The position numbers were made by a program, and so were the translations under genes. The notes beneath the pieces were generated by a model that worked only from the letters and a program-made list of their open reading frames with translations, did not search any database and had not been told where the DNA came from. Shown here piece after piece: positions 385 through 54,900 of a stretch of 64,000 nt of DNA. Position 1 is the stretch's first letter; the number at the start of each line of letters is the position of its first letter. Origin of the DNA: Limisphaerales bacterium (lineage in GTDB: Bacteria > Verrucomicrobiota > Verrucomicrobiia > Limisphaerales > AAA164-E04); assembly GCA_965242585.1 (NCBI GenBank), contig OZ251460.1:1486692-1550691 (forward strand), given 5' to 3'.

Positions 385-1398
385 ATGAACGACTCACTAA
401 AAACTATCTTCTGGATTGAGATAGCGGTGCTCCTTGCGATTGTTTCCGTCACTGCCCGCGCCGCCATTCCCAACACGGAAACAAGCGAAATCATCTACTC
501 CACCGGATTCGAAGCCAGTGAAGGATTCAATCGAGATTTAATCACGGGGCATGACGGTTGGCTTGGATCTGTCAACGGTGCAAGTGGATCTATTTTCAAT
601 AAGGGCAACGGTGTGGTGGAAGGTGACTTCTTTGACGAGCCGGGGCGACAACTGGCATTCATCGGTTTCTCCTTGCCCGAGTCTGTCGAAACCGTCGAAT
701 CCTTCAACCTCTTTCACCCGGTCACTGTTACTAATTTTCCCGATAGCGCGCCAATAATCCATTTTGAAGTAACAATGGAGATTGGTGATTCCACAAACAA
801 CGAACGCGACGTCTTCGGCTGGGTTGCCTATAATTCCAACGGTGACGGTTTATTTTCCCTTGACTTCGACAATCAAACCCAGGCGATTTCCTATGTTCTT
901 GATGATGGCAAAGGCGCAATCGACACCGAGTTCTTCTTTGAAGACGATATAGCCTACGATCTCCGAATCAGTATGAACTTTCATCGCAATCTCTGGTGTG
1001 CCTCATTGAACAACACTGTGATCGTCAACAACCAGCCGATCACCACTAAAGATGCCGAACTTACGTTCAGCGGCATTGATGCTGTGTGGGCTATCTCTGC
1101 GCCCGGAAGGCCGGGGGATAATCATATGTTCTTCGACAACTATTCCATTACTCGCGCCGGCCCGCCGCGCATTGCCCCCAGAGTGAACATTCAAGGCATC
1201 CTGTCCGACGGCAAATGCGTTCTTCGAGTTTTTGGCGAACTCGACGCCGAATACCAAATCGAAGCCTCTTCGGATTTGAACGATTGGACGCCGATCAAAA
1301 CCGGCAGAACTTCTGCAGACGAAGGCATTCTCGACTTTGTGGACGACCAAGCGCCCCGTTTTTCCGCCCGTTTTTACCGCGCCGTCACCGTTCAATAG
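385..1398 (+). CDS. Secreted hypothetical protein: signal/anchor, LamG-like jelly-roll body and C-terminal F-Y-R tail
   Basis: 337-aa ORF with purine-rich GGAAGG upstream. N-terminus is MNDSLKTIFWIEIAVLLAIVSVTARA. The body ends with MFFDNYSITRAG, which is typical of concanavalin/LamG-like folds. The last ~70 aa are GKCVLRVFGELDAEYQIEASSDLNDWTP...ARFYRAVTVQ. The frame has no stop back to nt 1, so an upstream start cannot be excluded. Confidence 0.6.
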   Translation: MNDSLKTIFWIEIAVLLAIVSVTARAAIPNTETSEIIYSTGFEASEGFNRDLITGHDGWLGSVNGASGSIFNKGNGVVEGDFFDEPGRQLAFIGFSLPESVETVESFNLFHPVTVTNFPDSAPIIHFEVTMEIGDSTNNERDVFGWVAYNSNGDGLFSLDFDNQTQAISYVLDDGKGAIDTEFFFEDDIAYDLRISMNFHRNLWCASLNNTVIVNNQPITTKDAELTFSGIDAVWAISAPGRPGDNHMFFDNYSITRAGPPRIAPRVNIQGILSDGKCVLRVFGELDAEYQIEASSDLNDWTPIKTGRTSADEGILDFVDDQAPRFSARFYRAVTVQ

Positions 1399-2618: not shown

Positions 2619-5600
2619 CTATTCCAATAACAAGAGACGGACGAAGGTCTGTTCTCCGTCGTTGGGGAGTGTAACCGTGAGATTGATGGAACCATCGCCG
2701 TTGTCTTCGCTGGAAATTTGGAAATCGGCGCCTTCGTTCCATGCCGTCCACCGGCTGGAAATCACGCTTGGACTTGTTTGCAAAGCGAACTTGCGTCCGC
2801 TGGCCAAGAGAAAAGTGAAGGAAACAGATTCGGCGGAAGCAGAAGCGGACAAAAGTCGGCCTTCGAGAATTTCAAATCGGACGATTCTAGGAGAGACCAG
2901 CGGTTCCGGTATGTTGACAAAGCCGTCCAGAACTTCGACAATGTAATCCGCCAGTATTTGCGGCTCGGTGGTCTCGGTAAGCAACACTGCGCGGTTGGGA
3001 TCGTCGTTGACGGCGGCTAAGGATGCATAGCCGTCGCCGCCGGCTATAAGGAATTCGTTGACTACAAGACCGAAGGTTCGTTGCAGATCGCCTTGGGCTT
3101 CAAAGTTGGCCACCACCAGGTCTTTTGTGCCGTCGGCTTGGAAGATCGTCAGGTTCTTGACGCGGGACGGAGTTGTCAAGCTGGAGGCAGATTCCACGCC
3201 CGGCCGGCTTGGATCATATTCCAGAAAAATGCCGGCTGCTTGGAGAAAGCGCCCATCCACTGCCGGATAACGGCTGACCGCGTTCTCAAAGGTTGCGATC
3301 GCCTCCGCCGCAGTCAATTCGGCAATGGCGAGTCGGTTGTTGAACGCCAAAGCGGTGTTGATGGACAAGCGAGTGATCGCCGGACCTTGAATACTCCGGC
3401 GAATGCCGCCGCTGTTATTCAGCGCAATGTCCACCGAGAGTTCCGAACCTCGGCTTTCCAAGTAGCGACGGGCAAACCATAAAATGGAATCGGTGGCCAA
3501 CTGCCCCAGATTCGTTTCCCGAGTCCGCACTTCGGCGGTTGTAGCAACCAGTTCCGTCGTTGTTTCTCCAACTCGTTGGAACTGCTCGATGATGGAATCC
3601 GTATTCCGAAGCGCGGTAAAGATTTCCCGCACTTCGGCGGTTGCGGCAACTTCCGGCGTTTCTATTCGTCCGGTCAATTTCGTTTGCAACGCAGCCATTG
3701 CTTCGGGTGTGGAAGCAACCGGACCGCTACGATCATCGACGGCGCGAACGCGGCCAGCCTCATCGAAGCTAACTATCAAATTGCCGACATAACGATAGTT
3801 GGGGCCGCTGTTGACCACAACAACCGGATTCCCTTCGCCATCCGTGCGCATAATGGGATAATCCGCCGAGGCTGCGTCTCCCGGTCGCAAGAGATTGAAC
3901 GGGCCGTTGGCTCCGGATCGGGCAAGAAATCCACTGGCGGCGGCGTTCACGATAATGTCGATGCCTCGCAGGTTTTCCGTTGACATTGGATCCGAAGCAA
4001 AGTCTTGAGCGTGATCCAACAGAATGATCTTGTTGATGCCTTGAGATTCCAAAAGGGCAACTTGGGCCAACACCAGGTCCATAGTGTCTTCCAACGGCAG
4101 ATTTGTGTCCGGATCGCGTCCGCCAACGAAGTCCAATCCCGGCAAGGCGGAATCCTCAAGCCAGTTGAAGAAGTCTAAGGGAGCGCGGCCAATCAAACCG
4201 ATTTTCTCGCCGCCAGCTTCTACCCAAGCGCTTTTCGCCACTTTGCCGGCGTTTTCGGCAACGCCGGCCCCATCGCGGCCGATTGCAATGGCCGGCACGC
4301 CTTCCGCCACTTCGACTTGGCTAAAGTCAAGATTGACGGCGAGAAAGGGATAATTCGCAGCATGCAACAGGTGAGCAAAGTTGTTGATGCCGCCGTCAAA
4401 TCCGTGATTGCTGGTGCCGTTGGCCGTCAGTCCCATGGCGTTGTAAAAAGCAATGTCGGCCAAGCCTTGGGCGCCGAAGCCGGCGTGAACTGATGCCTCA
4501 TAAAACGGTCCGGGCAAGATATGATTCCCCGCCGTCAGGTAGATGGATGGAATGCCCTCCTTGGCCGCCAAACCTTGCAAACCGTTGAGGACGGCGCCGT
4601 AGTTGAGGATGGTAGTCTCCAGCGTATTCGGATTTTGGAAGGCCGATTCATTGTCTGAAGAATGTAACACCTGAAGTTTGTATTCGGCCGGAGCCACCAC
4701 TCGCACCGTGTGAACGGTGATCGTGCCGCTGCCTTCGTGAGCCACTGCCAACAAGGGTTTCCCAGAAGGACTTTGATCGGCCGGAATAAAGGTTATTGCA
4801 TCGGGACTAACATCGCCCGCTTGAGAAATGTCTTCGGCGGAGAAGTCCGTAGTATTTAAATACTGAACAAAGAAGGCGGAGTGGGGAGAAGTAATGTCGT
4901 ACATCATAATGCCGCCGACTCTTTCCAAACCTATAAAGGCGTAAACGCGGTCATCAATTTTGCCGATTGCCAACGCTTCCGGTTCCGGTCCCTTGTTGTC
5001 GCTACGCTGGTCAAACGAACCATCCCAATCATTTGCATTGAAGTTTTCGCCGAGAACTTCGGCGGTGATTCGCTCAAAGTCATCCCCAGAATCAAACACG
5101 ATCTTGCCGAATTCATCCCAGATGCTAAATGAACGGGCGCCGTAGGAGAAAATTTGATCGATGTCTCCATCGCCGTCAAAGTCCCCAGTGACAGGAGAGG
5201 CTTGGAGTCTTCCTAAATTTTCGTCCGCCTGCAAAGTTTCCGCATTGGGATAAGAGGCGGGATCCAAAGTTAAATGTTTGACTCTACTTGGACCAATGTC
5301 ACCGTCGCGATGGGCGCCTTCGTTGGCGCCTACAATATAATTCCGGCCAAGGGTTTCATAAGCCGCTGTTGCATCTGGTTGATACATTCCCATAACCGGC
5401 CATGTTTTGATATTGACTGCGCCGTCTCGGTCGCTGGCATCAAAACCTTGTCCTTCAATACTATGATCTTTAAATCCAAGTGAAAATAGTTCCTTCAGTT
5501 CCATAGTCGCCAAGTCAAGAATGGCGGCGGCGTTGTTTTCCTGCATAGTAACATAGGCCAATCGGTTATCGGGAGTGACGGCGATGTATTCCGGTTCTAA

Positions 5601-8177
5601 GTCTTCCGCCACGGTGGAAGGGCGTAAAAACTCGCCTTCCGAGTTGTGGACTTGCCCGAAGATCCGAATTCCCTTTTCTTGTAAAGTATCTTTTGAAGAG
5701 TTGAACGATGTAAAGTCAATGGTAGTAACTTGGGACTGCGTCAACTGAGCCACATCGTCCAGTGAACCGGAGCTTAGATCCACTATGGAGATGGAGCCAA
5801 GTGGATCGATAGTATACTCTTCTAAAGGTTCTCCTTCGTTAGCCGTCAAGAGTTTGGTGCCGTCCGGACTGAAGGTTATCATATTCGGCTGCACACCCAC
5901 TTGGACGCGGCTTAATTCCGTTCCGCTCTGCGCGTCTAGAAAAACTACAAATCCATTCTGGTCCCGAAATTTACTAAAAAAACCAACGGCAACTATGCCG
6001 TTGGCGGCAACTATGCCGTTGGCGGCAACTATGCCGTTGGCGGCAACTCCTAAATCGGAAATTAAAAATTCTAGAGACGGTGTCTCTGGGTTGCTGAGAT
6101 CTAAGACGAGAATCCCATCGATGGAAAGGGCGGTCACGAAGAGCCGTTTGGTGGACGGATCATAAGCGATGCCTTCATCAACGCCGCCGTCGGGCGAGTC
6201 CTTTCTGAATCTAGCGAACTTTCCTAGTTCGTTGAAGATGCGGACGCGTGGATTGGTCAAGTCATCGGACAAATGGACTTCTCCGTCCAGCGCATTTTGA
6301 ATGTATTCAGTGAGAACTTGCCGCTCTCCAATTTTGGGTTGTAGATTTATGCGCTCCGGATTTGATTTGGCGGCGCTAAAAGCGCGATAGCCGTCGCCTC
6401 CGGTGGCCAGAAATTCATTGGCGGCTAACACGAAGGTTTGGGAGAGATTTCCGACAACTTGGAAGTTTTCGATCAAGGGGACGAGCGTTCCATTCTCACG
6501 GCGGACGGTCAAATAGATGACGCGCGACGGAATATCCAAAGTCAAGGCGTCGGGAATTCCCGGACGGCGAGAATCAAACTCGAAATCCAAACCGGCGATT
6601 TGCGGAAAGGAGCCAGAGCGATGGGGAAAATGGGAAACGGCGTTTTCCACCGCTGCGAGCAATTCGTTTCCGCTCAATTCGATGATTTCCAAAGTGTTGT
6701 CAAAGGCTAAGGCCGACTCAATCGAGAACTTGGTGATGTTCGGGCCGGATATTGAATTGCGAATGCCGCCGCTGTTTTTTAGCGCAAGGTCCACGCTGAC
6801 TTCCCTTCCCTCTTGACGAACATATTGGCGAGCCCACCAAAGATACGAATCGGCGACTAAACGGCCTAAGTTGGTTTCCCGGCTTCGGACATGGTCTTCT
6901 GCGCCGTTTAGCGGCGAGGAAGTGGTGCCGACGATGGCGAACAAATCCTGGATTAACGGCGTTTTTGTGAGCGTCTCAAAAGTGGATCGCACTTCTTCCG
7001 GCGCTTGCAAGGTTGGCACCAGCAATTCCGCGCTCAAAGCCGCAACTGCTTCGGTGGTGCTGGCAACCGGCCCGCTGCGATCATCTATTTGAGCAATCAA
7101 GCCTTGGTCGTCAAAAGTCACTATCAAGTTGCCGACGTAGCGATAGTTTTGGCCGCTGTTGACAATGCAAACCGGATTCCCATCGGCATCGGCGCCCAAG
7201 ATTGGATAGTCGACCACGGGTTTGTCGTCGGGACGCAAAAGATTGAACGGGCCGTCGGGCTCGGCTTTCGCCATGAAGTCTGTGTTGCCGGCAAAGACGA
7301 TAATGTCGACGTCGCGCAATTCGCTGGCCGGAACGGGATCGCCGCTAAAGTCCAACGGATGGTCCAAAAGAATGATTTTGTTGATTCCCTGCGCTTTCAA
7401 AAGATCGACTTGCTCTAGAATTTGAGGAATCGCCGGCGCCAACGGCCGGTTGGTTTCCGGATGGCGTCCGCCAACAAAGTCCAGTCCGGGCAAGTTTGCT
7501 TCCGGGTCCAGCGTGATGTCAAAAAGGTCGCTCGGAGCGCGGCCAATCAAGCCGATGCGTTCTCCGTTCAGTTCCACCCAAGCGCTTTTGGCCACCTTGC
7601 CTTGGTTCGCTTCGACGCTGGCGGCGTCTTCTCCAATCTCAATGGCGGGAACGCCTTCGGAGAGACGGACTTTGGAGAAGTCCAAGTTTACCGCTAAAAA
7701 CGGATATTTGGCGAAGCGCAATCGGCGCGCAAAACCTTCAATCCAACCGTCAATGCTACCGTTAAACTCATGGTCGCCAATGCTGGTGGCCGTCAGTCCC
7801 GTGGCGTTGAAAAAGTGGATGTCGGCCAATCCCTGCAGGCCTAAGGAATCCACTTGGGCGGAGGCTTGATAAAAAGGCCCGGGCAAGGTTTGATCCCCGG
7901 CGGCCACATACAGAGAGGGAATGTTCTCCCGCTCCGCCAGCAGTTTCAAACCGTGAAGCACGGCGCCGTAGTGGAGAAGCTTCGGCTCCAAAGTGTTCGG
8001 ATCCTGAAAAGCAGATTCGTGATTCGAAGCATGCAAAACTTGCAGCGGAAAACCTTCGACAGGAGGAGTTTCCTGCGCAACGGCCGACCGCAAAAAGAGC
8101 GCCCCAACCGCGCCCGCAAGGAAGGTTAAAGTTTGTTTTTTATAGACTTCTCGCATAGATAGTAAGTTTCCATTCAT
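2619..8177 (-). CDS. Giant secreted phosphoesterase: two UshA-like metallophosphoesterase/5'-nucleotidase modules flanking a central beta-propeller, plus C-terminal F-V-R tail
   Basis: 1852 aa with signal peptide MREVYKKQTLTFLAGAVGALFLRSAVAQ. Module 1 has LQVLHASNHESAF...AAGDQTLPGPFY...IGDHEFN...LDHP...RSRETNLGRLVAD...LKNSGGIRNS...GGDGY. Module 2 repeats the same order: LQVLHSSDNESAF...TAGNHILPGPFY...SNHGFD...RTRETNLGQLATD...LNNSGGIRRS...GGDGY. The middle ~550 aa (GFDASDRDGAVNIKTWPVMGMYQPDA...GANEGAHRDGD...DFDGDGDIDQ) resembles phytase-like/choice-of-anchor-I propellers. Confidence 0.8.
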   Translation of the reverse strand: MNGNLLSMREVYKKQTLTFLAGAVGALFLRSAVAQETPPVEGFPLQVLHASNHESAFQDPNTLEPKLLHYGAVLHGLKLLAERENIPSLYVAAGDQTLPGPFYQASAQVDSLGLQGLADIHFFNATGLTATSIGDHEFNGSIDGWIEGFARRLRFAKYPFLAVNLDFSKVRLSEGVPAIEIGEDAASVEANQGKVAKSAWVELNGERIGLIGRAPSDLFDITLDPEANLPGLDFVGGRHPETNRPLAPAIPQILEQVDLLKAQGINKIILLDHPLDFSGDPVPASELRDVDIIVFAGNTDFMAKAEPDGPFNLLRPDDKPVVDYPILGADADGNPVCIVNSGQNYRYVGNLIVTFDDQGLIAQIDDRSGPVASTTEAVAALSAELLVPTLQAPEEVRSTFETLTKTPLIQDLFAIVGTTSSPLNGAEDHVRSRETNLGRLVADSYLWWARQYVRQEGREVSVDLALKNSGGIRNSISGPNITKFSIESALAFDNTLEIIELSGNELLAAVENAVSHFPHRSGSFPQIAGLDFEFDSRRPGIPDALTLDIPSRVIYLTVRRENGTLVPLIENFQVVGNLSQTFVLAANEFLATGGDGYRAFSAAKSNPERINLQPKIGERQVLTEYIQNALDGEVHLSDDLTNPRVRIFNELGKFARFRKDSPDGGVDEGIAYDPSTKRLFVTALSIDGILVLDLSNPETPSLEFLISDLGVAANGIVAANGIVAANGIVAVGFFSKFRDQNGFVVFLDAQSGTELSRVQVGVQPNMITFSPDGTKLLTANEGEPLEEYTIDPLGSISIVDLSSGSLDDVAQLTQSQVTTIDFTSFNSSKDTLQEKGIRIFGQVHNSEGEFLRPSTVAEDLEPEYIAVTPDNRLAYVTMQENNAAAILDLATMELKELFSLGFKDHSIEGQGFDASDRDGAVNIKTWPVMGMYQPDATAAYETLGRNYIVGANEGAHRDGDIGPSRVKHLTLDPASYPNAETLQADENLGRLQASPVTGDFDGDGDIDQIFSYGARSFSIWDEFGKIVFDSGDDFERITAEVLGENFNANDWDGSFDQRSDNKGPEPEALAIGKIDDRVYAFIGLERVGGIMMYDITSPHSAFFVQYLNTTDFSAEDISQAGDVSPDAITFIPADQSPSGKPLLAVAHEGSGTITVHTVRVVAPAEYKLQVLHSSDNESAFQNPNTLETTILNYGAVLNGLQGLAAKEGIPSIYLTAGNHILPGPFYEASVHAGFGAQGLADIAFYNAMGLTANGTSNHGFDGGINNFAHLLHAANYPFLAVNLDFSQVEVAEGVPAIAIGRDGAGVAENAGKVAKSAWVEAGGEKIGLIGRAPLDFFNWLEDSALPGLDFVGGRDPDTNLPLEDTMDLVLAQVALLESQGINKIILLDHAQDFASDPMSTENLRGIDIIVNAAASGFLARSGANGPFNLLRPGDAASADYPIMRTDGEGNPVVVVNSGPNYRYVGNLIVSFDEAGRVRAVDDRSGPVASTPEAMAALQTKLTGRIETPEVAATAEVREIFTALRNTDSIIEQFQRVGETTTELVATTAEVRTRETNLGQLATDSILWFARRYLESRGSELSVDIALNNSGGIRRSIQGPAITRLSINTALAFNNRLAIAELTAAEAIATFENAVSRYPAVDGRFLQAAGIFLEYDPSRPGVESASSLTTPSRVKNLTIFQADGTKDLVVANFEAQGDLQRTFGLVVNEFLIAGGDGYASLAAVNDDPNRAVLLTETTEPQILADYIVEVLDGFVNIPEPLVSPRIVRFEILEGRLLSASASAESVSFTFLLASGRKFALQTSPSVISSRWTAWNEGADFQISSEDNGDGSINLTVTLPNDGEQTFVRLLLLE
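5991..6044 (-). repeat. Perfect 18-bp x3 in-frame tandem repeat inside the phosphoesterase gene
   Basis: AACTATGCCGTTGGCGGC occurs three times without a mismatch (5991-6008, 6009-6026, 6027-6044), with partial copies on both sides. It encodes (AANGIV)3 on the minus strand. Confidence 0.95.
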
Positions 8178-30421: not shown

Positions 30422-32650
30422 CTATTGTAGTTGGATTACCCGAAAAAACTCGGCGCTATTGGACTGCATTTCTAACGGTTGCTCCAGTATTTCGCCGGTT
30501 CCCGTCAAGGGAGCAAAGCGATTGGTCCAGTCCGCGTCGATGTCGCCGGACTTGACTTGCACTTGGTATTGTTTGCCGGTTTGCGAATGCCACCGGAGCG
30601 TTAGGCGGCCATCGGCGTTGAATCCGATGGAGAGGCTCTCATCTAAGATCTCGAAGGTGAATGTTTCTACTTTGCTGGCGCTTGCTTGGCTTTCGGCGGC
30701 CAAGGTTCCTGACGCTTGCAATCCAACTCGATAAACGCCCGGCGCGGTGAAGCCCCAATTCTGATGGGAATGGCCGGCGGCGGAGAGCGAAAACACATCG
30801 CTTTGGCTAATGCCGTCTTCTGAATTGAAGAACACCGTTGGGTTGCCAAGGGCGTCCACGCTATAAAGCGAAACTGCGCCCGGCCCTTCGACGCTTACCA
30901 AGTTCAACGCAACCGCGTCGTTTTCAAAAACGCCGGCTTCGATTTCATCCGCGGCAATACCGAGAAAGAGGACGCCGGGCATTTCTTCTTGCGGCAAGAC
31001 GTTGACGACGGCGCCAGGTTCGCCGAGAAAACGAAAGGCCTCGTGGTCCGGCACGCGGATTTGGGTTGCCGCCCCGCCTTGAAGGATTAACTCCGACGGG
31101 CAAATCTCTCGCTCGTTGGCTTCATCCAAAGCGGCGATTTCCCATTCGCCATCTTCATAGACGATTTCGAGGTCCAACTCGCCATCGTTGAAAATCGTTG
31201 GCCCAAAGACTTCAAACAGAAAGGTGGTTTCTTCGCTGGAAACCGTTTGTCCGCCCGCATTGAGAACGCCGGAGGCCGTCAATCCAACGCGGTAGATTCC
31301 CGGCGCGGTGAAGCCCCAATTCTGATGGGAATGGCCGCCGGCGGAGAGCGAAAACACATCGCTTTGGCTAATGCCGTCTCCCGAATTGAAAAACACCGTC
31401 GGATTGCCGAAAGTATCGGTTGCGTAGAGAAAGACGGCGCCGGGTCCTTCCACATTCTCCAAGTTCAACGCAACCGCGTCGTTTTCAAAAATGCCGGACT
31501 CGATTTCATCTCCCGCAATGCCGAGGAACAAGACTCCTTCCCGTTCGCTTTGCGGCAAGAGATACACGGTGTCGCCCGGATTTCCCAGAAAGGCAAAGGC
31601 CGGGTCGTTTGGCACTTTCTGCCAAGTGGACGGCCCGGCGTGCAAGGCCGCTTCGTTGGCTTCAAATTTTTGGCCGCTGTGTTCGCCCTCATGGTCGTGT
31701 CCGTCTTCACCCTCATGGTCGTGTCCGTCTTCACCCTCATGGTCGTGTCCGTCTTCGCCCTCATGGTCGTGTCCGTCTTCACCCTCATGGTCGTGTCCGT
31801 CTTCACCCTCATGGTCGTGTCCGTCTTCGCCCTCATGGTCGTGTCCGTCTTCGCCCTCATGGTCGTGTCCGTCTTCACCCTCATGGTCGTGTCCGTCTTC
31901 GCCCTCATGGTCGCTGTGTCTGTCCAGCAGAACCAATTCCAATTCGCTGTCTTCAAAGGCGACTTCCATTTCCACTTCTCCGCGATCCAGAACGTTCACG
32001 GCGAAGCGATAGAGTTGCTCGTCGCTGGTGATTGGCTCCGAAGCGTCGGCCAAAGTTCCCCGCATTTGGAATCCGACAAAATGCGTTCCCGGCGAGGTAA
32101 AACCCCAGTTTTTGTGAAGATGCCCTCCCCCGGCGCGCAGCTCTATCTGATCCGTTTCATCGATGCCGTCGCGTGAATTCAGTAGGACTTCCACTTGCGC
32201 GGTGCCGGCCCTCCAGGTCACAAAATCTCCCGGCCCCTCTACGCTGCTCAGCAGCAAATCGAAACGATTCTCGGCAAAAATTCCGGACTCAATTTCATCC
32301 GTTGAAATGCCCAGAAACCAAGTGCCCTCTCGGGACACTTGCGGAAGAACCCAAATTGGGTTTCCCGCTTCGCCCAAGAAACTGAAGTTGGCATTGTCGG
32401 GAACGAGAAGTTTGGTGTTTTGATTCAGGGCAACGATCCATTCCTCCGGCGGGTGAATTCCCGGCGGGCTGTCCAAACGCAATCCCAACTGCCATTGGTT
32501 TTCGGCGTAGTCGATGGCTACATCGCCGTGTCCATCGGACCTAACCTCTCGATCTCCCGCCGTGATTGACGTCGCCAGCACGAAAAGCGCCGCCCCAATG
32601 CCGGTCCAAAAGGAGACGCGGCCCTTGTATGTTTGATTGGTCGTTATCAT
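30422..32650 (-). CDS. Secreted three-domain surface protein (H-x-H-x-NWGFT domain x3, resembling the TIGR03769 / choice-of-anchor-M type) with a His/Asp/Glu-rich insert and C-terminal F-F-R tail
   Basis: Three ~190-aa repeats each end in GGHLHKNWGFTSPGTHFVG, GGHSHQNWGFTAPGIYRVG or AGHSHQNWGFTAPGVYRVG. About ten HDHEGEDG units are inserted in domain 2. The tail reads YQVQVKSGDIDADWT...AEFFRVIQLQ. The ORF opens at 32728, but the AT-rich stretch before Met at 32650 (MITTNQTYKGRVSFWTGIGAALFVLATSITA) looks intergenic. Confidence 0.75.
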   Translation of the reverse strand: MITTNQTYKGRVSFWTGIGAALFVLATSITAGDREVRSDGHGDVAIDYAENQWQLGLRLDSPPGIHPPEEWIVALNQNTKLLVPDNANFSFLGEAGNPIWVLPQVSREGTWFLGISTDEIESGIFAENRFDLLLSSVEGPGDFVTWRAGTAQVEVLLNSRDGIDETDQIELRAGGGHLHKNWGFTSPGTHFVGFQMRGTLADASEPITSDEQLYRFAVNVLDRGEVEMEVAFEDSELELVLLDRHSDHEGEDGHDHEGEDGHDHEGEDGHDHEGEDGHDHEGEDGHDHEGEDGHDHEGEDGHDHEGEDGHDHEGEDGHDHEGEHSGQKFEANEAALHAGPSTWQKVPNDPAFAFLGNPGDTVYLLPQSEREGVLFLGIAGDEIESGIFENDAVALNLENVEGPGAVFLYATDTFGNPTVFFNSGDGISQSDVFSLSAGGHSHQNWGFTAPGIYRVGLTASGVLNAGGQTVSSEETTFLFEVFGPTIFNDGELDLEIVYEDGEWEIAALDEANEREICPSELILQGGAATQIRVPDHEAFRFLGEPGAVVNVLPQEEMPGVLFLGIAADEIEAGVFENDAVALNLVSVEGPGAVSLYSVDALGNPTVFFNSEDGISQSDVFSLSAAGHSHQNWGFTAPGVYRVGLQASGTLAAESQASASKVETFTFEILDESLSIGFNADGRLTLRWHSQTGKQYQVQVKSGDIDADWTNRFAPLTGTGEILEQPLEMQSNSAEFFRVIQLQ
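31681..31920 (-). repeat. 24-bp x10 in-frame tandem repeat encoding HDHEGEDG
   Basis: The unit CTTC[A/G]CCCTCATGGTCGTGTCCGT repeats head-to-tail, with CTCATGGTCG recurring every 24 nt from 31688 to 31904. Only the A/G position varies, except in the two degenerate end copies. Confidence 0.95.
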
Positions 32651-32724
32651 CTCTGTTGCTATATTTTGTATTATCGTATTTCTAGTTTTGTCCAAAACGG
32701 CGCTACTTGGCCGTCGGACGAAAT

Positions 32725-33474
32725 TCATTCGGGGGGTTGGGCGATGTTGACGCCCTGTTCAATTTGTCGTTTGACTTCGGCGGCGTCAATGCTTTCCACA
32801 TGGCCGTCGACAAAAAGGTAGTTGGCGCGCCCTTGGCTTCGGTCTTCTTTGGGAGCGCCGGTTCGGTGGCGGTCGGGTTGAATGTCGCCGAGCACACTGT
32901 CCCATCCTCCCGATAGCCAAATCCGAGAATGAGTGTGATCCTCGCCCACGGTCGGAGCGTTGTCATCAGCGGTTTCAAACAGCAAAATGGTTTCGGTCGG
33001 TTGCTTTAACTGGTCCAACTTTGGCAAAGGCTCAATCAGCCGACCAAACGGATCCACGCGCGGCACGGACAAAAATTCATTCAATATGTAACTGGTGCCG
33101 CTCAATTGATGCCGCTTGTTGCGCTTGGGATCGGCGGGGCAAAGTCGAATCTTTTCCGAGTTGCCGACATACGGACGCAGTTGGTAAATCCACATTTTGT
33201 TTGTGATCTGGGTTTCGTGCCCGGTCATCGGCAGCAACCCTTCAAAGTCATCGGCATACATTCGGAAACCCAAGCCAATCTGCCGCAAGTTCGACACGCA
33301 CTTTATCCGTTTGGCTTGAGCGGACGCCTTGCTCAAGGCCGGCAAAAGCAACGAGGCCAAGATCACGATGATCACAATCACCACAAGCAGCTCAATTAAC
33401 GTAAAAGCGCGGACATTTTGGCGGTTCCCCGCCGATCCGGGCACTTCCCGGACGTAGTTCTGACAATTCATCAT
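32725..33474 (-). CDS. Prepilin-type N-terminal cleavage/methylation protein with H-X9-DG C-terminus (DUF1559 pseudopilin-like)
   Basis: The motif [29 protein letters not shown] is the class III signal. The C-terminus [15 protein letters not shown] matches the H-X9-DG motif. The start is assumed at MMNCQ (33474); the ORF opens at 33552. The stop overlaps the long form of the downstream ORF by 4 nt. Confidence 0.85.
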
Positions 33475-33575
33475 ACTTAGTTTTGGTTCAGTTAGCTTCT
33501 GTTCCCGACGGCATTTGCCAAAACAACGGGAAACTTTTTCCGCCGCCCGCAAAAGGCGCCGGAGACGAAGAATGC

Positions 33576-34079: not shown

Positions 34080-37000
34080 ATGATTGACAGCCAATCCGGA
34101 CTGAAACAGACTCCTCCGCAGATGAAAAGTTTACCTTTCAGCAAAAACAACCAAATGAAGCCCAAAAACCAGTTTTATCGATCCTTCGCTTGGGGACGGC
34201 GCGCCGCCTTCTCCTGCCTCCTCCTTGCCAGTCTTCCTGCCGCCAACGCCGCCACATTCACAGAGCGCAATCCCGCGCAGGACTTTGACGGACTGGAACT
34301 GAGACTCGCGGGAAATACTTCGCCTCAAGGCCTCTGGTCCAACGGCACCACGATGTGGGTGGCAGACGGCGCCGACGGCAAACTCTACGCCTACAAAATG
34401 AGCGACAAAACACGCGATGCCCTCAAAGACTTCAACACTTTGAGCGCCGCCGGAAATAATCTTCCCACCGGCCTGTGGTCTAACGGCACGACAATGTGGG
34501 TGACGGATTGGCAGGATGCTAAGATTTATGCCTACAAGATGAGCGACAAAAGCCGCGATCCCGCCAAAGATTTCGACACTTTGAGCGCCGCCGGAAATAT
34601 TCGCCCCACAGGAATCTGGTCCGACGGCGCCACGATGTGGGTCTCGGACACTGCGGACACAATCTACGCCTACAAAATGAGCGACAAGAGCCGCTCCCCC
34701 ACCAAAGACTTCAACATCCGAAGCCTTATTGGAAATCGATACATCCAAGACATCTGGTCTGACGGAACGACGCTGTGGGCGGCGGATTTTGCGGGGAGCC
34801 GCGGCGACGATAAACTCTACGCATTCGGCCTGCCGAAGCAAAACCGGGACGCCTCCAAAGACTTCAACACGCTGGAAGCCGCCGGAAATCATCAGCCTCG
34901 CGGCCTATGGTCGGACGGAACCACCATGTGGGTTGCAGACGCTAAGGATGACAAAATTTACGCCTACCATTTGTCAACACAAGAACCGTCGCGTTCCGAC
35001 AACAACAGACTGGCGTCTCTCCAACTGAGTGGAGTCGAGTGGCTTCCCGACTTTGACGGCCGCGCCGATTTTTTCAGAGCGGTAACCTTGGACTACGATG
35101 TTGCCCACGTCGGTGTTGTTGCAGTGGCTATTCACGAAGGCGCCTCAGTAGAAATTTCGCCGCCGGACGACGCTCCCAACACCCCCGGACATCATGTGGC
35201 TTTATCCGCCGGCGACAACACAACAATCACCATCACCGTTACCAGCGAAAACGGAAATGTGCGGGTCTATACCCTACTTGTTTCTCGGTCCACTTCGTGG
35301 CACAGAGATCTAGATTTTAATGCGCTGAATGCCGCCGGAAACAGCCAGCCTCGAGGCCTGTGGTCGGACGGAATTCACATGTGGGTGGCCGACGCTTCCG
35401 ACGCCAGAATATACGCCTACAAAACAGCCGACAAAACGCGCAATCCCGCCCAAGACTTCAATACACTAAGCGCCGCCGGAAATACCAGCCCCACGGGAAT
35501 CTGGTCAGACGGGACAACCATGTGGGTAGCGGACTGGCAGGATGACAAGCTTTACGCCTACAACATGTCCGACAAAAGCCACGATCCCGACAAAGACTTT
35601 GATACACTAAGCGCCGCCGGAAATACCAACCCCACGGGAATCTGGTCAGACGGGACAACCATGTGGGTGGCGGACACTGCGGACAGGATTTATGCCTACA
35701 ACATGTCCGACAAAAGCCGGAATCCATCCGAAGACTTTGACACATATAATACCATCGGAAATCGATACATTCAGGGAATCTGGTCGGACGGGACAACTAT
35801 GTGGGCGGCAGACTTTGCCGGCACAAACGGAATCAGCAAGATTTATGCTTTCAATCTGTTGAGCAAAAATCGAGACGTAGCCAAAGAATTCAACATGCTG
35901 TCGCCAGCGGGGAATAATCAACCCCGCGGTCTGTGGTCTGGCGGAGAGACGATGTGGGTAGTAGATTCTTCCTACGACAAGCTTTACGCTTACCACCTTT
36001 CAGACACGGCGGGCTTGAGTTCTTTAGAAGTCAGCAACGCCCAGTTGTCCCCTGCCTTTCACAAATCTAGCGTTGAATATTCGGCGGAAGTTGCCAATGC
36101 GATCACCAACGTTTCAATCACGGCAGTAGCGGACCGTTCGGAAGCCTCCGTTGCCATCTCGCCAACAGACGCCGATCCCAATACCGATGGACATCAAGTG
36201 GCCTTATCCGAAGGCGCGAACACTATTACAATCACTGTAACTCCGTCCAATACTAGAATCTCTGGTCGCACTTACACCTTGACGGTTCGTCGATCACCTT
36301 CCAGCGATAACACCTTAAGAAATTTAACTATGAGCAATGCCACACTCTCTCCTCCTACTTTTCGTAGCAGCACCACCTACTATACGGCTACCGTCGCTCA
36401 CAACGTCACCTCCACCACCATCACGGCCGAGGCCAACCACGCCAATGCCTCCGTTGTCATCTCACCTCAGGATGCGGACACAGAAACTGAAGGACATCAA
36501 GTTGACCTAACAAGAGGTATCAATGGAATTATCATCGCCGTCACCGCCGCAGACGGGAGCATACGGACCTATACTTTGGATGTTCTGGTTGAAGATGGAT
36601 CCTTTGATAACGCATTGAGAAGCCTGACTCTGAATAACGCAACTCTCTCCCCTGCCTTTCACGGCAACACGACCAACTATACGGCGAGCGTTGGGCAGGC
36701 TGGCGCTGTTACTACGGTGACGGCTCGGGCCAACCATTCTATGGCGAAGACGGTGATTTTGCCGGCGGACGTGGATAGGGAAACTGCCGGACATCAGGTC
36801 GCTCTAACCGAAGGCGATAACTCCATCTTTGTTGTCGTCATTGCGCCGAACGGCAACCCCCGTGCCTATACTATTAGAGTACGCCGAACATTTTCCGGGG
36901 ACGCTTCGTTAAAATCTCTGCAATTGAGCGGGGTAACCATGAGTTCCCAATTTAGCACTGGCACCACGAGCTACAGAGGAAACGTCGCACGAACCACTGC

Positions 37001-37553
37001 CTCGACTACGGTAACCGCCCAAACGAGTCATTCTATGGCGCGGACGGTGATTTTGCCGGCGGACGCGGATAGGGAAACTGCCGGACATCAAGTCGCTCTG
37101 ATCGACGGCATTAACCCCATCACTATTGCCGTCATTGCTCCGGACGGAACTTCCCGAATCTACACTGTGTCTGTGACTCGGACGCCGCAATCTGTTTTAG
37201 AAAATGGCTTGATTGGCCGCCTGAGCCTGAACGATCGTGCAGACAGTGCGCGACTTTTACTTCCATCGACATTATCCATAAGGGCAAGAACTTCGGAAAG
37301 CCGTTTGTCAGCGGTGGAGGCTTCTTCAGAGGGGATTCGCTTTGTTTTTCTCGTAGCGGATTCTATCATGAATGATGAGTTCACGGTGGAGGCTCGTTCG
37401 AGTTTGACAACGGGCCAATGGCAAGTTTTACGCGAGGGAGTGGACTGCACAGTGGTGCGAGAAAAAGACGAGAGAAAGATGGCACGGGTGACGGTGATCT
37501 TGCCGAGTGCCGGGGAGGATCAGATGTTTCTTCGCTTGATACCAAAGCATTAG
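34080..37553 (+). CDS. Large secreted repeat protein: 2 x (five 47-aa WSDG-TMWVAD-KIYAY repeats) + 5 cadherin-like beta-sandwich domains + C-terminal F-L-R tail
   Basis: The signal peptide is ...RRAAFSCLLLASLPAANA, with likely start at Met 34122 or 34155. There are ten repeats of the form KDFNTLSAAGNxxPxGLWSDGTTMWVADxxDxKIYAYKMSDKSRDPA. The intervening domains match the cadherin-like beta-sandwich pattern (LSSLEVSNAQLSPAF...Y...V...ITA...ASV.ISP.DAD...GHQVAL.EG.N.I.I.VT...YT..V.R). The tail is IRFVFLVADS...ARVTVILPSAGEDQMFLRLIPKH. Confidence 0.8.
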   Translation: MIDSQSGLKQTPPQMKSLPFSKNNQMKPKNQFYRSFAWGRRAAFSCLLLASLPAANAATFTERNPAQDFDGLELRLAGNTSPQGLWSNGTTMWVADGADGKLYAYKMSDKTRDALKDFNTLSAAGNNLPTGLWSNGTTMWVTDWQDAKIYAYKMSDKSRDPAKDFDTLSAAGNIRPTGIWSDGATMWVSDTADTIYAYKMSDKSRSPTKDFNIRSLIGNRYIQDIWSDGTTLWAADFAGSRGDDKLYAFGLPKQNRDASKDFNTLEAAGNHQPRGLWSDGTTMWVADAKDDKIYAYHLSTQEPSRSDNNRLASLQLSGVEWLPDFDGRADFFRAVTLDYDVAHVGVVAVAIHEGASVEISPPDDAPNTPGHHVALSAGDNTTITITVTSENGNVRVYTLLVSRSTSWHRDLDFNALNAAGNSQPRGLWSDGIHMWVADASDARIYAYKTADKTRNPAQDFNTLSAAGNTSPTGIWSDGTTMWVADWQDDKLYAYNMSDKSHDPDKDFDTLSAAGNTNPTGIWSDGTTMWVADTADRIYAYNMSDKSRNPSEDFDTYNTIGNRYIQGIWSDGTTMWAADFAGTNGISKIYAFNLLSKNRDVAKEFNMLSPAGNNQPRGLWSGGETMWVVDSSYDKLYAYHLSDTAGLSSLEVSNAQLSPAFHKSSVEYSAEVANAITNVSITAVADRSEASVAISPTDADPNTDGHQVALSEGANTITITVTPSNTRISGRTYTLTVRRSPSSDNTLRNLTMSNATLSPPTFRSSTTYYTATVAHNVTSTTITAEANHANASVVISPQDADTETEGHQVDLTRGINGIIIAVTAADGSIRTYTLDVLVEDGSFDNALRSLTLNNATLSPAFHGNTTNYTASVGQAGAVTTVTARANHSMAKTVILPADVDRETAGHQVALTEGDNSIFVVVIAPNGNPRAYTIRVRRTFSGDASLKSLQLSGVTMSSQFSTGTTSYRGNVARTTASTTVTAQTSHSMARTVILPADADRETAGHQVALIDGINPITIAVIAPDGTSRIYTVSVTRTPQSVLENGLIGRLSLNDRADSARLLLPSTLSIRARTSESRLSAVEASSEGIRFVFLVADSIMNDEFTVEARSSLTTGQWQVLREGVDCTVVREKDERKMARVTVILPSAGEDQMFLRLIPKH

Positions 37554-40002: not shown

Positions 40003-42051
<2,049 letters not shown>

Positions 42052-42105
42052 ACTAAAAAGCCGGTATTGTCAAGGTTTTCGGAGTCTTCCAAGTTCGCGA
42101 GCAAA

Positions 42106-51937: not shown

Positions 51938-54900
51938 TTAGCGTTGCGGCATCAATCGAAGAAATCGTTGTTTGCCTTCTGTCCGCGGCAAAATCACCGT
52001 CAAGCGAGCTCTGCCGTCTTCGTTAGCTTCCCGAATCACTTGGACTTTATCATCCGTCAAAAGCCTCCACTCTCCACCAAGCAAATTGAAACTTTCCTCG
52101 ATTCCAAACTCTTCCGCTGAAACAACAAACACAAAGCGAACCACACTCTCAGATAACGTCTCGGCAGAAATCAACCGACTCCACTCACCGCCGGAAAAAG
52201 AACTTGCCAAAGCCGAACGATTGTCGCCAACCGCCAATGGACGGAAGCTCTGCGACGGGATTTGGCTTTGTCCTGAAGTGCCTTCCGAAGACTGAGCCGC
52301 CGCCTCTCGCGTGATAAAAACCGTGTAAGTCCGCGTACTCCCGTCCTCAGCAGTGACGTCAACGGTAATGATATTGCGCCCTTCTTTTAAAGAAACTCGA
52401 CGGTCGCCGCCGGAACCTCCGCCACCCACAGCGTTGCTGCCCGCTGGCGAGATGTTCACAGTAGACTCAGAATGACTGGGGGTAGCCGTAATGGTTGTCG
52501 AAGTGACGGTGTGAGCCACAGTAGCCGTATAAATCGGATTGTGGGAAGAAAAAACAGGATTCAATCTCACTCCGCTGAGCGCCATGGTGTTTAACCCAGG
52601 ATCACCAGAGGGTGAATTCGTAGACGATCGCGGAAGAATGTAGGCATATAGATTATTGTTATTAAATTTATTATCCACTACCCACATCGTTCCCCCATCC
52701 GACCAAATGCCATGAGGATTAAGATTTCCCGCGGACTTCAGTGTGTCAAAATCTTTGTTTGGGGCACGGCAACCAAAATCCTGTTTTGTATTGCCTAGAT
52801 TGTAAGCATAGATTTTATCATCATCAGAATCCGTCACCCACATCGTCATGCCGTTTGACCAGATTCCCGTGGGTTTGTTGTTTCCCGCAGCCTCTAGTGT
52901 GGTAAAGTCTTTTCCAGAATCTCGGCTCTTGTCCGCCATTTTATAGGCGTAAATCTTGGCATCCGCCGTGTCCACCACCCACATCGTCGCGCCGTCCGAC
53001 CAAATAGCCGCAGGAGTGCTATTGTTTGTATCTAGAGTGTTAAATTCTTTGCCACGGACGCGGCTTTTGGCAATCAAGTTGGTATCACCCAGGTTGTAGG
53101 CGTAAATCCTGCGATCATCAAGGTCCGCCACCCACATCGTCGTGCCATTTGACCAGATTCCCGTGGGTCTGTCATTTCCCGCAGCCTTTAGTGTCTTGAA
53201 ATCCTTGCCAGGGACGCGGCTTTTGGCAACTAAGTTCGTATCACTTAGGTTGTAGGCTCGAATTTCAGATTTGAACCAATCTGCCACCCACATCGTCGTG
53301 CCATCCGACCAAAGATCGTAAGGCAAGCCAATGTCTCCAGAGATGTCAAAATCTTTCTCCGGGATTCGTGACGTAGCTCCTCTGCGAGTGACTGTTACGG
53401 TGTAAGTTCGAGGGCTGCAATTCGGAGCTATGGCAGTTATCGTAATGGTGTTACTGCCTATAGCCAAAGCTACTTGATGGCCGGCTGTGTTGGCGTCTGT
53501 ATCCGCCGGCAAAATAAGAATATCCGCATCAGCATGGTTCGCCCTTGCGGTTACTGTAGCAGAACTAGTTGTATGGTTCACAGTGGCCGTATAGTTGCTA
53601 ACGCTGCTGGAAAAATTAGTAATGTTGCCGGAAACAACGCCGCTCATCGACAAAGATCTCAACGAAGCGTCGCTAGAAAAAGCCCGATTGACTGTCACCG
53701 TGTAAATCCGGCCGATCCTGTTTGGAGCGGTGACAGAAAAGGTAATTGTGTTGGCGCCTTCTTCAAGTCTCACCGCATGGCTGTCGATATTCGGCAACGC
53801 GTCCGGCGGCGAGATAATCACAGTAGACTCGGAATAGCTCGGCAGGGCGTTATTAACGACAACGGTGTCATAGCCGTGGACAACGTCGACTGTGTAGTGG
53901 GTGACGACAGGATCAAAATCAGGAAATAACACAATGGTTTTTCTGTTTAGCCCGGAGGAAAGGCTAACTTTATCCAAATCCAGTTCCCTTAGCGATGACG
54001 CACCGGCAAACAGCCGATTATAGGCATACAATTTGTTGTCCATAGAGTCCACGATCCACATTGCGGCGCCATCTGACCATAATCCCCGAGGCGATCCATT
54101 TCCCGCCGCCTGCAAAGTGTTGAAGTCTTTGCCCGATTCTCGCCTCCCATTCGCCAGATTGTAAGCGTATAACTTCGCATCTTCCTTGTCTGCTACCCAT
54201 AAGGTTTTTCCGTCTGACCACATGCCTTCTGGATCGTTGTTCTCCATCGCTAAACCAAATTCCTTTGCAATGTTCCGTATCTTGTCCGCCATGTTGTAGG
54301 CATAAACTCTGTTTGTCATTGCCCCGTCGTCTGCTACCCACATCGTCTCCCCGTTCGACCAAATCCCCCGGGGTGCCGTGTTTGTCGACGCCAAAGTGAA
54401 GTCGTTGGTGGAAACATGACTCTTGCTTGATAGATTGTAGGCGTAGATCTTGTCGTCTCCATTGTCCGAAACCCACATCGTTTGACCATCCGACCACAGG
54501 CCGCGCGGCTGTTCGTTCCCAACTGCCTTTAAAGTGTTAAAGTCCGAACTAGAAGCAAGCCTTCTGCCGTCCGCCAAGTTGTAGGCGTAAAGTTTGTCAT
54601 CCTCGTTGTCCGCTACCCATATAGTCTCTCCATTCGACCATATCCCACGAGGTGCCGTGTTTGTCGACACTAAATCAAAGTCTTGAAGCGGGTTCCAGCC
54701 GGTCATGCCAATCGAAGCCCGGCGAATGGTGAGGATATAGTCTTTGGTGTCGCCGTTGGAGGCGGTAACCGTGACGGTAATGATGTTATTGCCTTCGGCT
54801 AGAACTACCTGATGGCCGACCGTGTTGGCGTCCGCGTCCGGCGGCGAGAGGGCAAGAGTTGCGGCCGGGTGTCTGGCCGATGCGGTGACAGTGGTTGCAG

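What the first reader, a model, noticed from the sequence alone, without database searches (positions are those of the whole stretch)
2619..2900. Five unrelated secreted proteins share a C-terminal ~70-90 aa tail ending F-[FYLV]-R-[LVA]-x3-4: possible uncharacterised sorting/anchoring tag
The tails are listed with approximate coordinates. 1180-1395: CVLRVFGELDAEYQIEASSDLNDWTP...ARFYRAVTVQ. 30425-30630 (minus): RLTLRWHSQTGKQYQVQVKSGDIDADWT...AEFFRVIQLQ. 2622-2890 (minus): VSFTFLLASGRKFALQTS...WTAW...INLTVTLPNDGEQTFVRLLLLE. 37300-37550: IRFVFLVADS...EFTVEARSSLTTGQWQVL...ARVTVILPSAGEDQMFLRLIPKH. 51941-52180 (minus): VRFVFVVSAEEFGIEESFNLLGGEWRLL...ARLTVILPRTEGKQRFLRLMPQR. All five are strictly C-terminal, sit on proteins with N-terminal signal peptides and otherwise different architectures, and end 3-4 residues after the F-x-R motif. 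That positional behaviour is what defines sorting domains such as PEP-CTERM, LPXTG or the T9SS CTD. However, this tail has no TM helix and is distinct from the PEP-CTERM tails in the same window. There appear to be two subtypes: the YQ[IV][EQ]..S.D...W type and the [IV]RF.F...W...TV.LP type.
Basis: partly seen in the sequence, partly recalled or inferred. Interest (0 to 1): 0.65.

Follow-up and report, generated by a model that had tools for sequence, protein, structure and literature searches.

The report
C-terminal mini-discoidin beta-sandwich tail domains
Five exported proteins in this window end in a small folded beta-sandwich domain, a shortened relative of the sugar-binding discoidin/CBM32 fold that no curated database lists; in its wider family the domain almost always sits at the very end of secreted proteins, often in tandem, so it is more likely a terminal binding or retention module than a classical cleaved sorting signal.

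Summary
All five ORFs exist, each has a signal-peptide-like N-terminus, and each ends 3-5 residues after an F-x-R strand. The tails form two families. A and B (type 1) match a profile built from 147-157 public domain copies at E=5e-26 and 2e-14. C, D and E (type 2) match each other at E=1e-7 to 1e-11. Type 2 links to type 1 only by profile-profile comparison: score 30.3 against 8.9±1.8 for shuffles and 16.4 for an unrelated beta-sandwich.

Neither type hits Pfam or NCBIfam, including the T9SS-CTD and PEP-CTERM models. Both are predicted to be autonomous beta-sandwiches (pLDDT 97 and 83). Type 1 is homologous to the C-terminal half of discoidin/CBM32 (hhalign 98%, E=4e-14; PDB E=2e-4).

In the wider family the domain forms arrays of 1-10 copies. 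The array runs to the stop codon in 101 of 126 proteins, and internal copies also carry RFYR.

The sorting-tag reading is partly supported. The terminal bias and the choice-of-anchor hosts fit it. The tandem copies, the CBM32 ancestry and the lack of a partner gene point instead to a terminal binding/retention module. Its function is untested.

The parts
2622..2900 (-). Type-2 tail domain of protein C (residues ~1760-1852); this is the finding's own interval
   Evidence: The type-2 HMM covers ORF residues 1761-1852. phmmer to the D and E tails gives E=3e-8 and 1e-7. No Pfam or NCBIfam hit.
37257..37550 (+). Type-2 tail domain of protein D (residues ~1060-1157)
   Evidence: Type-2 HMM hit. phmmer to the E tail gives E=1.5e-10.
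51941..52213 (-). Type-2 tail domain of protein E (residues ~2693-2783)
   Evidence: Type-2 HMM hit. AF2 model has pLDDT 82.8 and is a 6-7-strand sandwich. The only outside relative is P0001, at 38% identity to D's tail, the query's first sequence, and 82-83% to E's tail in the A3/A4 alignments.
1177..1395 (+). Type-1 tail domain of protein A (residues 265-337)
   Evidence: Family HMM E=5e-26. AF2 model has pLDDT 97.3 and six strands. Orthologue P0190 keeps the tail.
30425..30637 (-). Type-1 tail domain of protein B (residues ~698-768)
   Evidence: Family HMM E=2e-14. Orthologues P0005 and P0198 keep the tail at the C-terminus, even though P0005 has a ~400-aa insertion upstream of it.
385..1398 (+). 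Host protein A: signal peptide, an unannotated N-terminal domain, then the type-1 tail
30422..32728 (-). Host protein B: three choice-of-anchor M repeats, a His-rich HDHEGEDG insert, then the type-1 tail
2619..8177 (-). Host protein C: two 5'-nucleotidase modules, a choice-of-anchor I propeller, then the type-2 tail
34080..37553 (+). Host protein D: 47-aa repeats, five Cadherin-like domains, then the type-2 tail
51938..60289 (-). Host protein E: giant paralogue of D with nine Cadherin-like domains, then the type-2 tail

Best explanation
What it is (shown). The tails are autonomous small beta-sandwich domains, not linear sorting peptides.
- Type 1 (A and B, ~72 aa, six strands) belongs to a widespread family that no curated database covers. 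It is a truncated derivative of the discoidin / F5-8 type C / CBM32 fold. It corresponds to roughly the last 70 residues of that domain without its final strand. The invariant Trp and the D...R-F-Y-R last strand are fold determinants.
- Type 2 (C, D and E, ~90 aa, one extra hairpin) is a rare, lineage-restricted sister family.
- In the wider family the domain is appended singly or as head-to-tail arrays of up to 10 copies. These arrays run to the very C-terminus of multi-domain proteins such as S8 proteases, a GH16 enzyme, an astacin, and LRR, cohesin and DUF11 proteins; about half of the complete ones pass a crude signal-peptide check.

How it most likely works (inferred).
1. The host protein is exported by its Sec signal peptide.
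2. The terminal module or modules fold independently.
3. They act as a non-covalent binding or retention module, lectin-like as in CBM32. This keeps the enzyme or adhesin attached to an envelope glycan or to its substrate.
4. Extra tandem copies add avidity or reach.
5. The tail is not removed by a sortase-type enzyme.

I put about 0.85 on the identity (a folded discoidin-derived domain with a terminal-array bias) and about 0.4 on the binding/retention function.
For: Domain family:
- Profile search of 1.84e9 proteins gave 238 hits at E<=1e-3, most with 2-10 stretches.
- The median gap between copies is 5 aa.

Fold:
- AF2 gives pLDDT 97.3 for type 1 and 82.8 for type 2.

Discoidin ancestry:
- hhalign of type 1 against discoidin segments gives Prob 98.2%, E=3.8e-14 over 70 columns.
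- hmmsearch of PDB sequences has its best hits in the CBM32/discoidin domains of a chitosanase (4zy9, 2rv9, 4zxe; E=2.3e-4), followed by other CBM32 entries.
- Weak hits to F5_F8_type_C recur in Pfam (9 of 36 members).
- CBM32 chains recur among the weak Foldseek hits.

Motif is structural:
- Internal copies keep the motif.

Terminal bias:
- 101 of 126 proteins have the last copy flush with the C-terminus. Stop codons were verified at DNA level.

Passenger diversity.

No match to T9SS-CTD, PEP-CTERM or LPXTG models.

No conserved neighbouring processing gene.
Against: - Ordinary CBM32 and Ig-like modules show no such near-absolute preference for the extreme C-terminus. Binding alone does not explain why the array must be last.
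- The truncation removes the N-terminal half of discoidin, which contributes ligand-binding loops. Binding capacity is therefore not assured.
- Terminal copies are better conserved than internal copies in the same proteins. R[FY][YF]R is present in 83% against 54%, and the mean HMM score is 62.9 against 54.6. Terminal copies also tend to be each other's nearest neighbours, 37 against 17. This hints at a terminal-specific constraint, although orthology and search bias could produce the same pattern.
- Two hosts are choice-of-anchor proteins.
- No ligand, localisation or processing data exist.
- The link from type 2 to type 1 rests on a profile of only four sequences.
Confidence: 0.45

Rival explanations
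1. The terminal copy is a CTD-type secretion or attachment signal. It would be recognised by an as yet unidentified outer-membrane translocon or attachment machinery in Verrucomicrobiota and other phyla without a T9SS. It would work like the T9SS C-terminal domain and might be cleaved and replaced by a lipid or glycan anchor. Upstream copies would be spacers.
For: - The array is flush with the C-terminus in 101 of 126 proteins. It is flush with the stop codon in all fetched loci, including an unselected astacin gene.
- Terminal copies are more conserved than internal copies and tend to resemble each other.
- Two hosts belong to choice-of-anchor M and I, and C has LPXTG-anchored homologues.
- Passenger regions are very diverse.
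- The size and the beta-sandwich fold resemble those of the T9SS CTD.
- An independent paper proposes a T9SS-like CTD on the surface-bound sulfatase Amuc_0953 of the verrucomicrobium Akkermansia (PMC13524802).
Against: - No sequence match to TIGR04183/PF18962 or TIGR04131/PF13585.
- No T9SS CTD structure appears among the 50 Foldseek matches listed for either model.
- Tandem arrays of up to 10 copies occur, and internal copies retain the motif.
- Ancestry lies in a carbohydrate-binding fold.
- No candidate machinery lies beside the genes in 7 independent contexts.
- The profile did not match the PDB sequence set in which the Akkermansia enzyme would be expected.
Confidence: 0.2
2. The tail is a passive structural module. 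It would be a stable C-terminal cap or spacer that aids folding or protease resistance of long beta-rich extracellular proteins, with no specific ligand and no role in sorting.
For: - The conserved residues (W, D, RFYR) look like fold determinants and are shared by internal and terminal copies.
- The tandem arrays have very short linkers, median 5 aa, like stalks.
- The truncated discoidin lacks the usual ligand-binding half.
- No structural neighbour has a defined function.
Against: - A spacer would be expected between domains, not obligatorily last.
- Single-copy tails on small proteins such as A (337 aa) are hard to explain as spacers.
- The tail is conserved in orthologues at 40-55% overall identity.
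Confidence: 0.2
3. The resemblance among the five tails is chance or compositional: generic beta-strand patterns that happen to end in F-x-R.
For: - A/B against C/D/E are not detectable by pairwise search or by HMM-to-sequence search (C at E=0.35, D at E=0.44).
- The type-2 profile has only 4 sequences.
Against: - Similarity within each type is highly significant.
- The cross-type hhalign score of 30.3 is far above the shuffled, reversed and unrelated beta-sandwich controls. The alignment is colinear over the whole domain.
Confidence: 0.03

Closest known systems
Discoidin / F5-8 type C / CBM32 domain (PF00754, PF22633)
   Same: There is significant profile similarity over ~70 columns (hhalign 98%, E=4e-14; PDB CBM32 hits at E=2e-4). 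Both share the Y-x-[IV]-[QE]-x-S-x-D..W and R-[FY]-[YV]-R strands. Both are appended, often in tandem, to secreted enzymes.
   Different: The tail is about half the size, ~72 aa against 130-150. It lacks the N-terminal ~75 residues and the final GYSLWEFEVYG strand. It falls below Pfam thresholds. It has a strong bias to the extreme C-terminus. Full discoidin domains and the mini domain co-occur in the same protein (P0112).
T9SS C-terminal domain (type A TIGR04183/PF18962; type B TIGR04131/PF13585)
   Same: Both are small beta-sandwiches at the extreme C-terminus of Sec-exported proteins with very diverse passenger regions.
   Different: There is no sequence match and no close structural match. 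The tail occurs in tandem arrays. Members for which a source gives an organism come from Verrucomicrobiota and Hydrogenedentota MAGs, phyla not known to carry a T9SS (my own knowledge). No T9SS genes were seen.
PPC, the bacterial pre-peptidase C-terminal domain (PF04151)
   Same: It is a ~70-aa beta-sandwich found in one or two copies at the C-terminus of secreted proteases. By my own knowledge it is removed after secretion. It co-occurs with type 1 in P0146 and P0038.
   Different: There is no sequence similarity. In those proteins PPC lies upstream of the type-1 copies.
Tripartite sorting signals (PEP-CTERM/exosortase, LPXTG/sortase, MYXO-CTERM and similar)
   Same: All are C-terminal, sit on exported proteins, and are found on choice-of-anchor family proteins.
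   Different: The tail has no signature-motif-plus-TM-helix-plus-basic-cluster layout. It is a folded domain three to four times longer. A PEP-CTERM-like tail of the classical layout is present separately in the window (1646-2356, minus strand).
C-terminal domain of Akkermansia muciniphila sulfatase Amuc_0953 (PMC13524802)
   Same: It is a verrucomicrobial surface-bound enzyme whose last domain was proposed, from an AF3 model, to act like a T9SS CTD.
   Different: The type-1 and type-2 profiles found no sequence relationship in the PDB sequence set. That proposal is also untested.

Membership tests
T9SS C-terminal sorting domain | Match to the curated CTD models (TIGR04183/PF18962 or TIGR04131/PF13585) | tested here: not met
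   No hit at E<=1 for the five tails. No hit at E<=10 for 36 family members.
T9SS C-terminal sorting domain | Single copy at the extreme C-terminus | tested here: inconclusive
   The tail is single and terminal in all five window proteins. In the wider type-1 family it forms arrays of 1-10 copies, with the array flush to the C-terminus in 101 of 126 proteins.
T9SS C-terminal sorting domain | Ig-like beta-sandwich close to solved CTD structures | tested here: not met
   The models are beta-sandwiches. Foldseek against the PDB gave no hit at E<0.001 and no T9SS CTD among the 50 matches listed.
T9SS C-terminal sorting domain | Genome encodes the T9SS core (SprA, PorK/L/M/N, PorU/V) | not testable with these tools
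   Only 64 kb of the genome is available, and none of these genes was seen in it. The source genome is not on record.
PEP-CTERM / LPXTG-type tripartite signals | Short motif, then a hydrophobic TM helix, then a basic cluster at the C-terminus | tested here: not met
   The tail sequences contain no hydrophobic helix. There are no NCBIfam hits.
Discoidin / F5-8 type C / CBM32 | Significant sequence-profile similarity | tested here: met
   For type 1: hhalign 98.2%, E=3.8e-14, and PDB CBM32 hits at E=2.3e-4. For type 2 the similarity is only weak (P=0.01).
Discoidin / F5-8 type C / CBM32 | Complete ~130-150 aa eight-strand jelly roll that scores above the Pfam gathering threshold | tested here: not met
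   The unit is ~72 aa with 5-aa linkers in arrays. It aligns only to discoidin columns 78-147 of 163. Pfam scores are well below the cut-off.
Discoidin / F5-8 type C / CBM32 | Carbohydrate or ligand binding | not testable with these tools
   This needs binding assays with the isolated domain.
Choice-of-anchor host families (context, not the tail) | The host matches NF038134 or NF038117 above the curated cut-off | tested here: met
   B scores 360.7 bits against a cut-off of 55. C scores 525 bits against a cut-off of 300.

The most novel reading that the evidence does not exclude
The terminal copy of this mini-discoidin domain is the cargo signal of an unrecognised outer-membrane export or attachment pathway. 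That pathway would operate in Verrucomicrobiota, Hydrogenedentota and allied phyla, would be functionally analogous to the T9SS CTD, and would have evolved from a CBM32-like fold. Type 2 would be a lineage-specific version of the same signal.
Probability: 0.17. Interest if true: 0.85.

Novelty: new variant of a known kind. Interest (0 to 1): 0.45.

Why it matters
How PVC-group and related diderm bacteria move very large enzymes and adhesins across the outer membrane, or hold them at the surface, is poorly understood.

This domain is short and easy to recognise. It marks the C-terminal end of hundreds of such proteins and is missing from Pfam and NCBIfam. Adding it would improve annotation of many 'hypothetical' surface proteins in environmental genomes. 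It would also give a concrete handle for testing surface retention against secretion, through tail deletion, reporter fusion, glycan binding and C-terminomics.

The domain is also an example of a half-size, autonomously folding derivative of the discoidin fold.

If it proves to be only a binding or spacer module, the result is a useful annotation but not a new mechanism.

Tried and rejected
- Word-indexed protein searches with the tail alignments were nearly blind. Type 2 gave one fragment, P0001. The two-sequence type-1 alignment gave nothing. The 36-sequence alignment gave 29 short unnamed fragments.
- Scans for more type-2 members all found nothing: genome contigs with A3, metagenome contigs with A3, and metagenome contigs with the last 330 aa of C. 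Type 2 therefore rests on four sequences.
- My hand-made DNA pattern for type 1 in genome contigs had a spacer of 80 N instead of 78. This broke the reading frame and returned two chance hits, L001 and L002. It wasted the last genome scan, so I have no systematic taxonomic distribution.
- I tested whether a prepilin-type N_methyl gene is the tail's partner. It lies directly upstream of B and its orthologues. It also lies upstream of the giant S8 proteases in L007 and L010. It is absent beside A/P0190, P0007, P0014, P0215 and P0129. I rejected it as a general partner.
- The first family HMM was contaminated by discoidin segments, marked by the ending GYSLWEFEVYG. I removed these and rebuilt the HMM. 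Apparent 'internal copies before a T9SS CTD' in P0040 and P0131 turned out to be ordinary discoidin domains.
- Foldseek against the PDB gave only generic Ig or beta-sandwich matches.
- Literature searches for the motif, for sorting signals and for choice-of-anchor found no description of this domain.
Full report
**1. The observation**

- A: 385-1398 (+), 337 aa
- B: 30422-32728 (-), 768 aa
- C: 2619-8177 (-), 1852 aa
- D: 34080-37553 (+), 1157 aa
- E: 51938-60289 (-), 2783 aa

The quoted C-terminal peptides are exact. Every protein stops 3-5 residues after F-[FYLV]-R-[LVA]. Each N-terminus has a basic stretch, a hydrophobic run and an AxA-type site (read directly from the sequence). None of the tails contains a hydrophobic helix. 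A separate ORF, 1646-2356 (-), ends ...VIPEPEEYALIFGLFALGFVFFHRRRMQKK, the classical PEP-CTERM layout, although no HMM called it.

Host architectures:
- A: no known domain.
- B: three choice-of-anchor M repeats (NF038134, 360.7 bits against a cut-off of 55).
- C: two 5'-nucleotidase modules around a choice-of-anchor I propeller (NF038117, 525 bits against a cut-off of 300).
- D and E: paralogues built from 47-aa WSDGTTMWVAD..KIYAY repeats and Cadherin-like domains.

'Five unrelated proteins' should therefore read 'four architectures'.

**2. Is the similarity real?**

Within the window, phmmer links C, D and E at E=1e-7 to 1e-11. It links A and B only at E=0.006-0.016. It finds nothing between the two groups.

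A profile of the A and B tails, searched against 1.84 billion representative proteins, found 238 proteins at E<=1e-3. An HMM rebuilt from 147-157 domain copies of those public proteins scores A at 5e-26 and B at 2e-14. It scores C at only 0.35 and D at 0.44.

Profile-profile comparison of the type-2 alignment (C, D, E and P0001) with the type-1 family gives a local probability of 85% and P=6e-6. The alignment spans 66-67 colinear columns, with the Trp and the F-x-R strand in register. Controls:
- 200 column shuffles score 8.9±1.8, maximum 15.1, against 30.3 for the real alignment.
- The reversed alignment scores 15.2.
- The Cadherin-like beta-sandwich of D and E scores 16.4 over 15 columns against type 2, and 11.1 against type 1.

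Each type is therefore solid, and the link between them is a moderately supported remote homology.

**3. What the tail is**

Pfam-A and NCBIfam do not match any tail at E<=1. This includes the T9SS CTD, PEP-CTERM and other sorting-signal models. Thirty-six family members scanned at E<=10 give only sub-threshold hits, most often to F5_F8_type_C_2 (9 members) and DUF3999 (8 members).

AlphaFold2 predicts a six-stranded sandwich for A's tail (pLDDT 97.3). It predicts a six-to-seven-stranded sandwich for E's tail (pLDDT 82.8). Foldseek against the PDB finds nothing below E=0.007. Type 2 returns generic Ig C1 domains. Type 1 returns miscellaneous sandwiches, including several CBM32 and F5/8C entries.

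Sequence profiles are more informative. The type-1 profile finds the CBM32/discoidin domains of a Paenibacillus chitosanase/glucanase (4zy9, 2rv9, 4zxe) at E=2.3e-4 in the PDB sequence set, followed by other CBM32 entries. hhalign of type 1 against an alignment of 72 discoidin segments gives 98.2% probability and E=3.8e-14. Type-1 columns 6-78 align to discoidin columns 78-147 of 163. One caveat applies: those discoidin segments came from the same search, so they are pre-selected for similarity. The PDB result is independent of that selection.

Type 1 is therefore a half-size derivative of the discoidin fold. It lacks the N-terminal ~75 residues and the final GYSLWEFEVYG strand. The unit is autonomous, because in arrays it repeats with a median linker of 5 residues.

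**4. Positional behaviour in the wider family**

Most hits carry 2-10 copies. I removed discoidin-type segments and rebuilt the HMM. After that, 126 proteins have at least one full copy, and in 101 of them the last copy ends within 5 residues of the C-terminus.

Genuine exceptions are few. P0034 is one, and P0081 looks frameshifted.

At DNA level, every array in the fetched loci L004-L010 ends at the stop codon. This includes an astacin gene that was merely a neighbour of a queried protein.

The distance from [FY][YF]R to the stop is usually 4-6 residues.

Passenger regions are very diverse: S8/proprotein-convertase proteases, GH16, PKD, FN3, DUF11, LRR ('internalin A'), a protein named by its source as cohesin-domain-containing, PPC and astacin.

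Two source names give taxonomy: Verrucomicrobiota and Candidatus Hydrogenedentota MAGs.

Orthologues of A (P0190, 40% identity) and of B (P0005 at 55%, P0198 at 44%) keep the tail. In P0005 it stays terminal although ~400 residues have been inserted upstream of it.

**5. Evidence for and against a sorting tag**

For:
- The terminal bias is strong.
- Passenger regions are diverse.
- B and C belong to choice-of-anchor families. C resembles LPXTG-anchored 5'-nucleotidases.
- Within the same proteins, terminal copies are better conserved than internal copies. R[FY][YF]R is present in 83% against 54%, and the mean score is 62.9 against 54.6. The nearest neighbour of a terminal copy is another protein's terminal copy 37 times and another protein's internal copy 17 times, although internal copies outnumber terminal ones about 2:1. 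Positional orthology and the use of terminal copies as the search seed could produce this pattern, so I treat it as suggestive only.
- A 2026 paper independently proposes that the last domain of the surface-bound Akkermansia sulfatase Amuc_0953 resembles a T9SS CTD, and that 'a comparable system may exist' (PMC13524802). My profiles found no sequence match to it in the PDB sequence set.

Against:
- The element is a folded domain.
- It is tandemly repeated up to 10 times.
- The F-x-R motif is the last beta-strand and is kept by internal copies.
- Its ancestry is a carbohydrate-binding fold.
- It matches no sorting-signal model.
- Across 7 independent genomic contexts, no protease, transporter or outer-membrane gene recurs.

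A prepilin-type N_methyl gene sits directly upstream of B (4-nt overlap), of B's orthologues, and of the giant S8 proteases in L007 and L010. It is absent in the other five contexts.

**6. Verdict**

The finding is real and is not covered by curated databases. It is best described as a discoidin-derived mini beta-sandwich that terminates exported proteins. It has a widespread subtype (A, B) and a rare subtype (C, D, E; one outside relative, P0001).

I favour a terminal binding/retention module, at 0.4-0.45. A CTD-like export or attachment signal stands at about 0.2, and a passive structural cap at about 0.2. None of these was tested functionally.

Limits:
- Type 2 rests on four sequences.
- The hit list is ranked by summed score, which favours multi-copy proteins.
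- Many hits are metagenomic fragments.
- I lost the chance of a systematic taxonomic survey through a mistyped spacer.

Noticed in passing
window 32725-33552 (-), adjoining B at 30422-32728; also L004 9237-9998, L006 9285-10004, L007 1955-9762, L010 1-7706: A prepilin-type N_methyl/DUF1559 gene overlaps the start of B by 4 nt. The same pairing is conserved in two related genomes. Separately, a conserved operon precedes giant S8 proteases that carry 4 tandem type-1 tails. It consists of three N_methyl genes, two small ORFs and a ~1200-aa ORF. The pairing is not general for tail-bearing proteins (2 of 7 contexts).
   Followed up: partly
window 31682-31913: A 24-bp tandem repeat, 9.7 copies at 97% match, encodes a His/Asp/Glu-rich HDHEGEDG insert inside B. 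The insert is absent from orthologues P0005 and P0198. It may be a metal-binding expansion.
   Followed up: partly
window 34080-37553 and 51938-60289: D and E are giant paralogues built from ~47-aa (141-bp) repeats, WSDGTTMWVAD..KIYAY. These alternate with Cadherin-like domains. The repeat has no Pfam family of its own and gives only weak lactonase/SGL propeller hits.
   Followed up: no
window 5987-6048: A perfect 18-bp repeat, 3.4 copies, encodes GIVAAN repeats inside the choice-of-anchor I region of C.
   Followed up: no
window 37913-45126, compared with L004 1-7208: The UvrC - ThiC - class II ribonucleotide reductase block is syntenic with a 3.8-Mb contig (ENA ERZ25070786) that also carries the B orthologue. 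The window's own proteins are not on record in the collection.
   Followed up: partly
window 49881-51409 (-): Two overlapping ORFs (Calx-beta; GLUG) lie just downstream of E. They lack convincing starts or signal peptides and look like pieces of a disrupted larger surface-protein gene.
   Followed up: no
window 1646-2356 (-): A PEP-CTERM-like C-terminus (VIPEPEE, then a hydrophobic helix, then HRRRMQKKR) that neither Pfam nor NCBIfam called at E<=0.001.
   Followed up: no
L010 20994-23513 (-): An astacin-family protease that was only a neighbour of a queried gene also ends in a single type-1 domain flush with its stop codon.
   Followed up: yes
window 25969-27750 (-): A GmrSD-type restriction endonuclease gene (N- and C-terminal domains) lies among housekeeping genes.
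   Followed up: no
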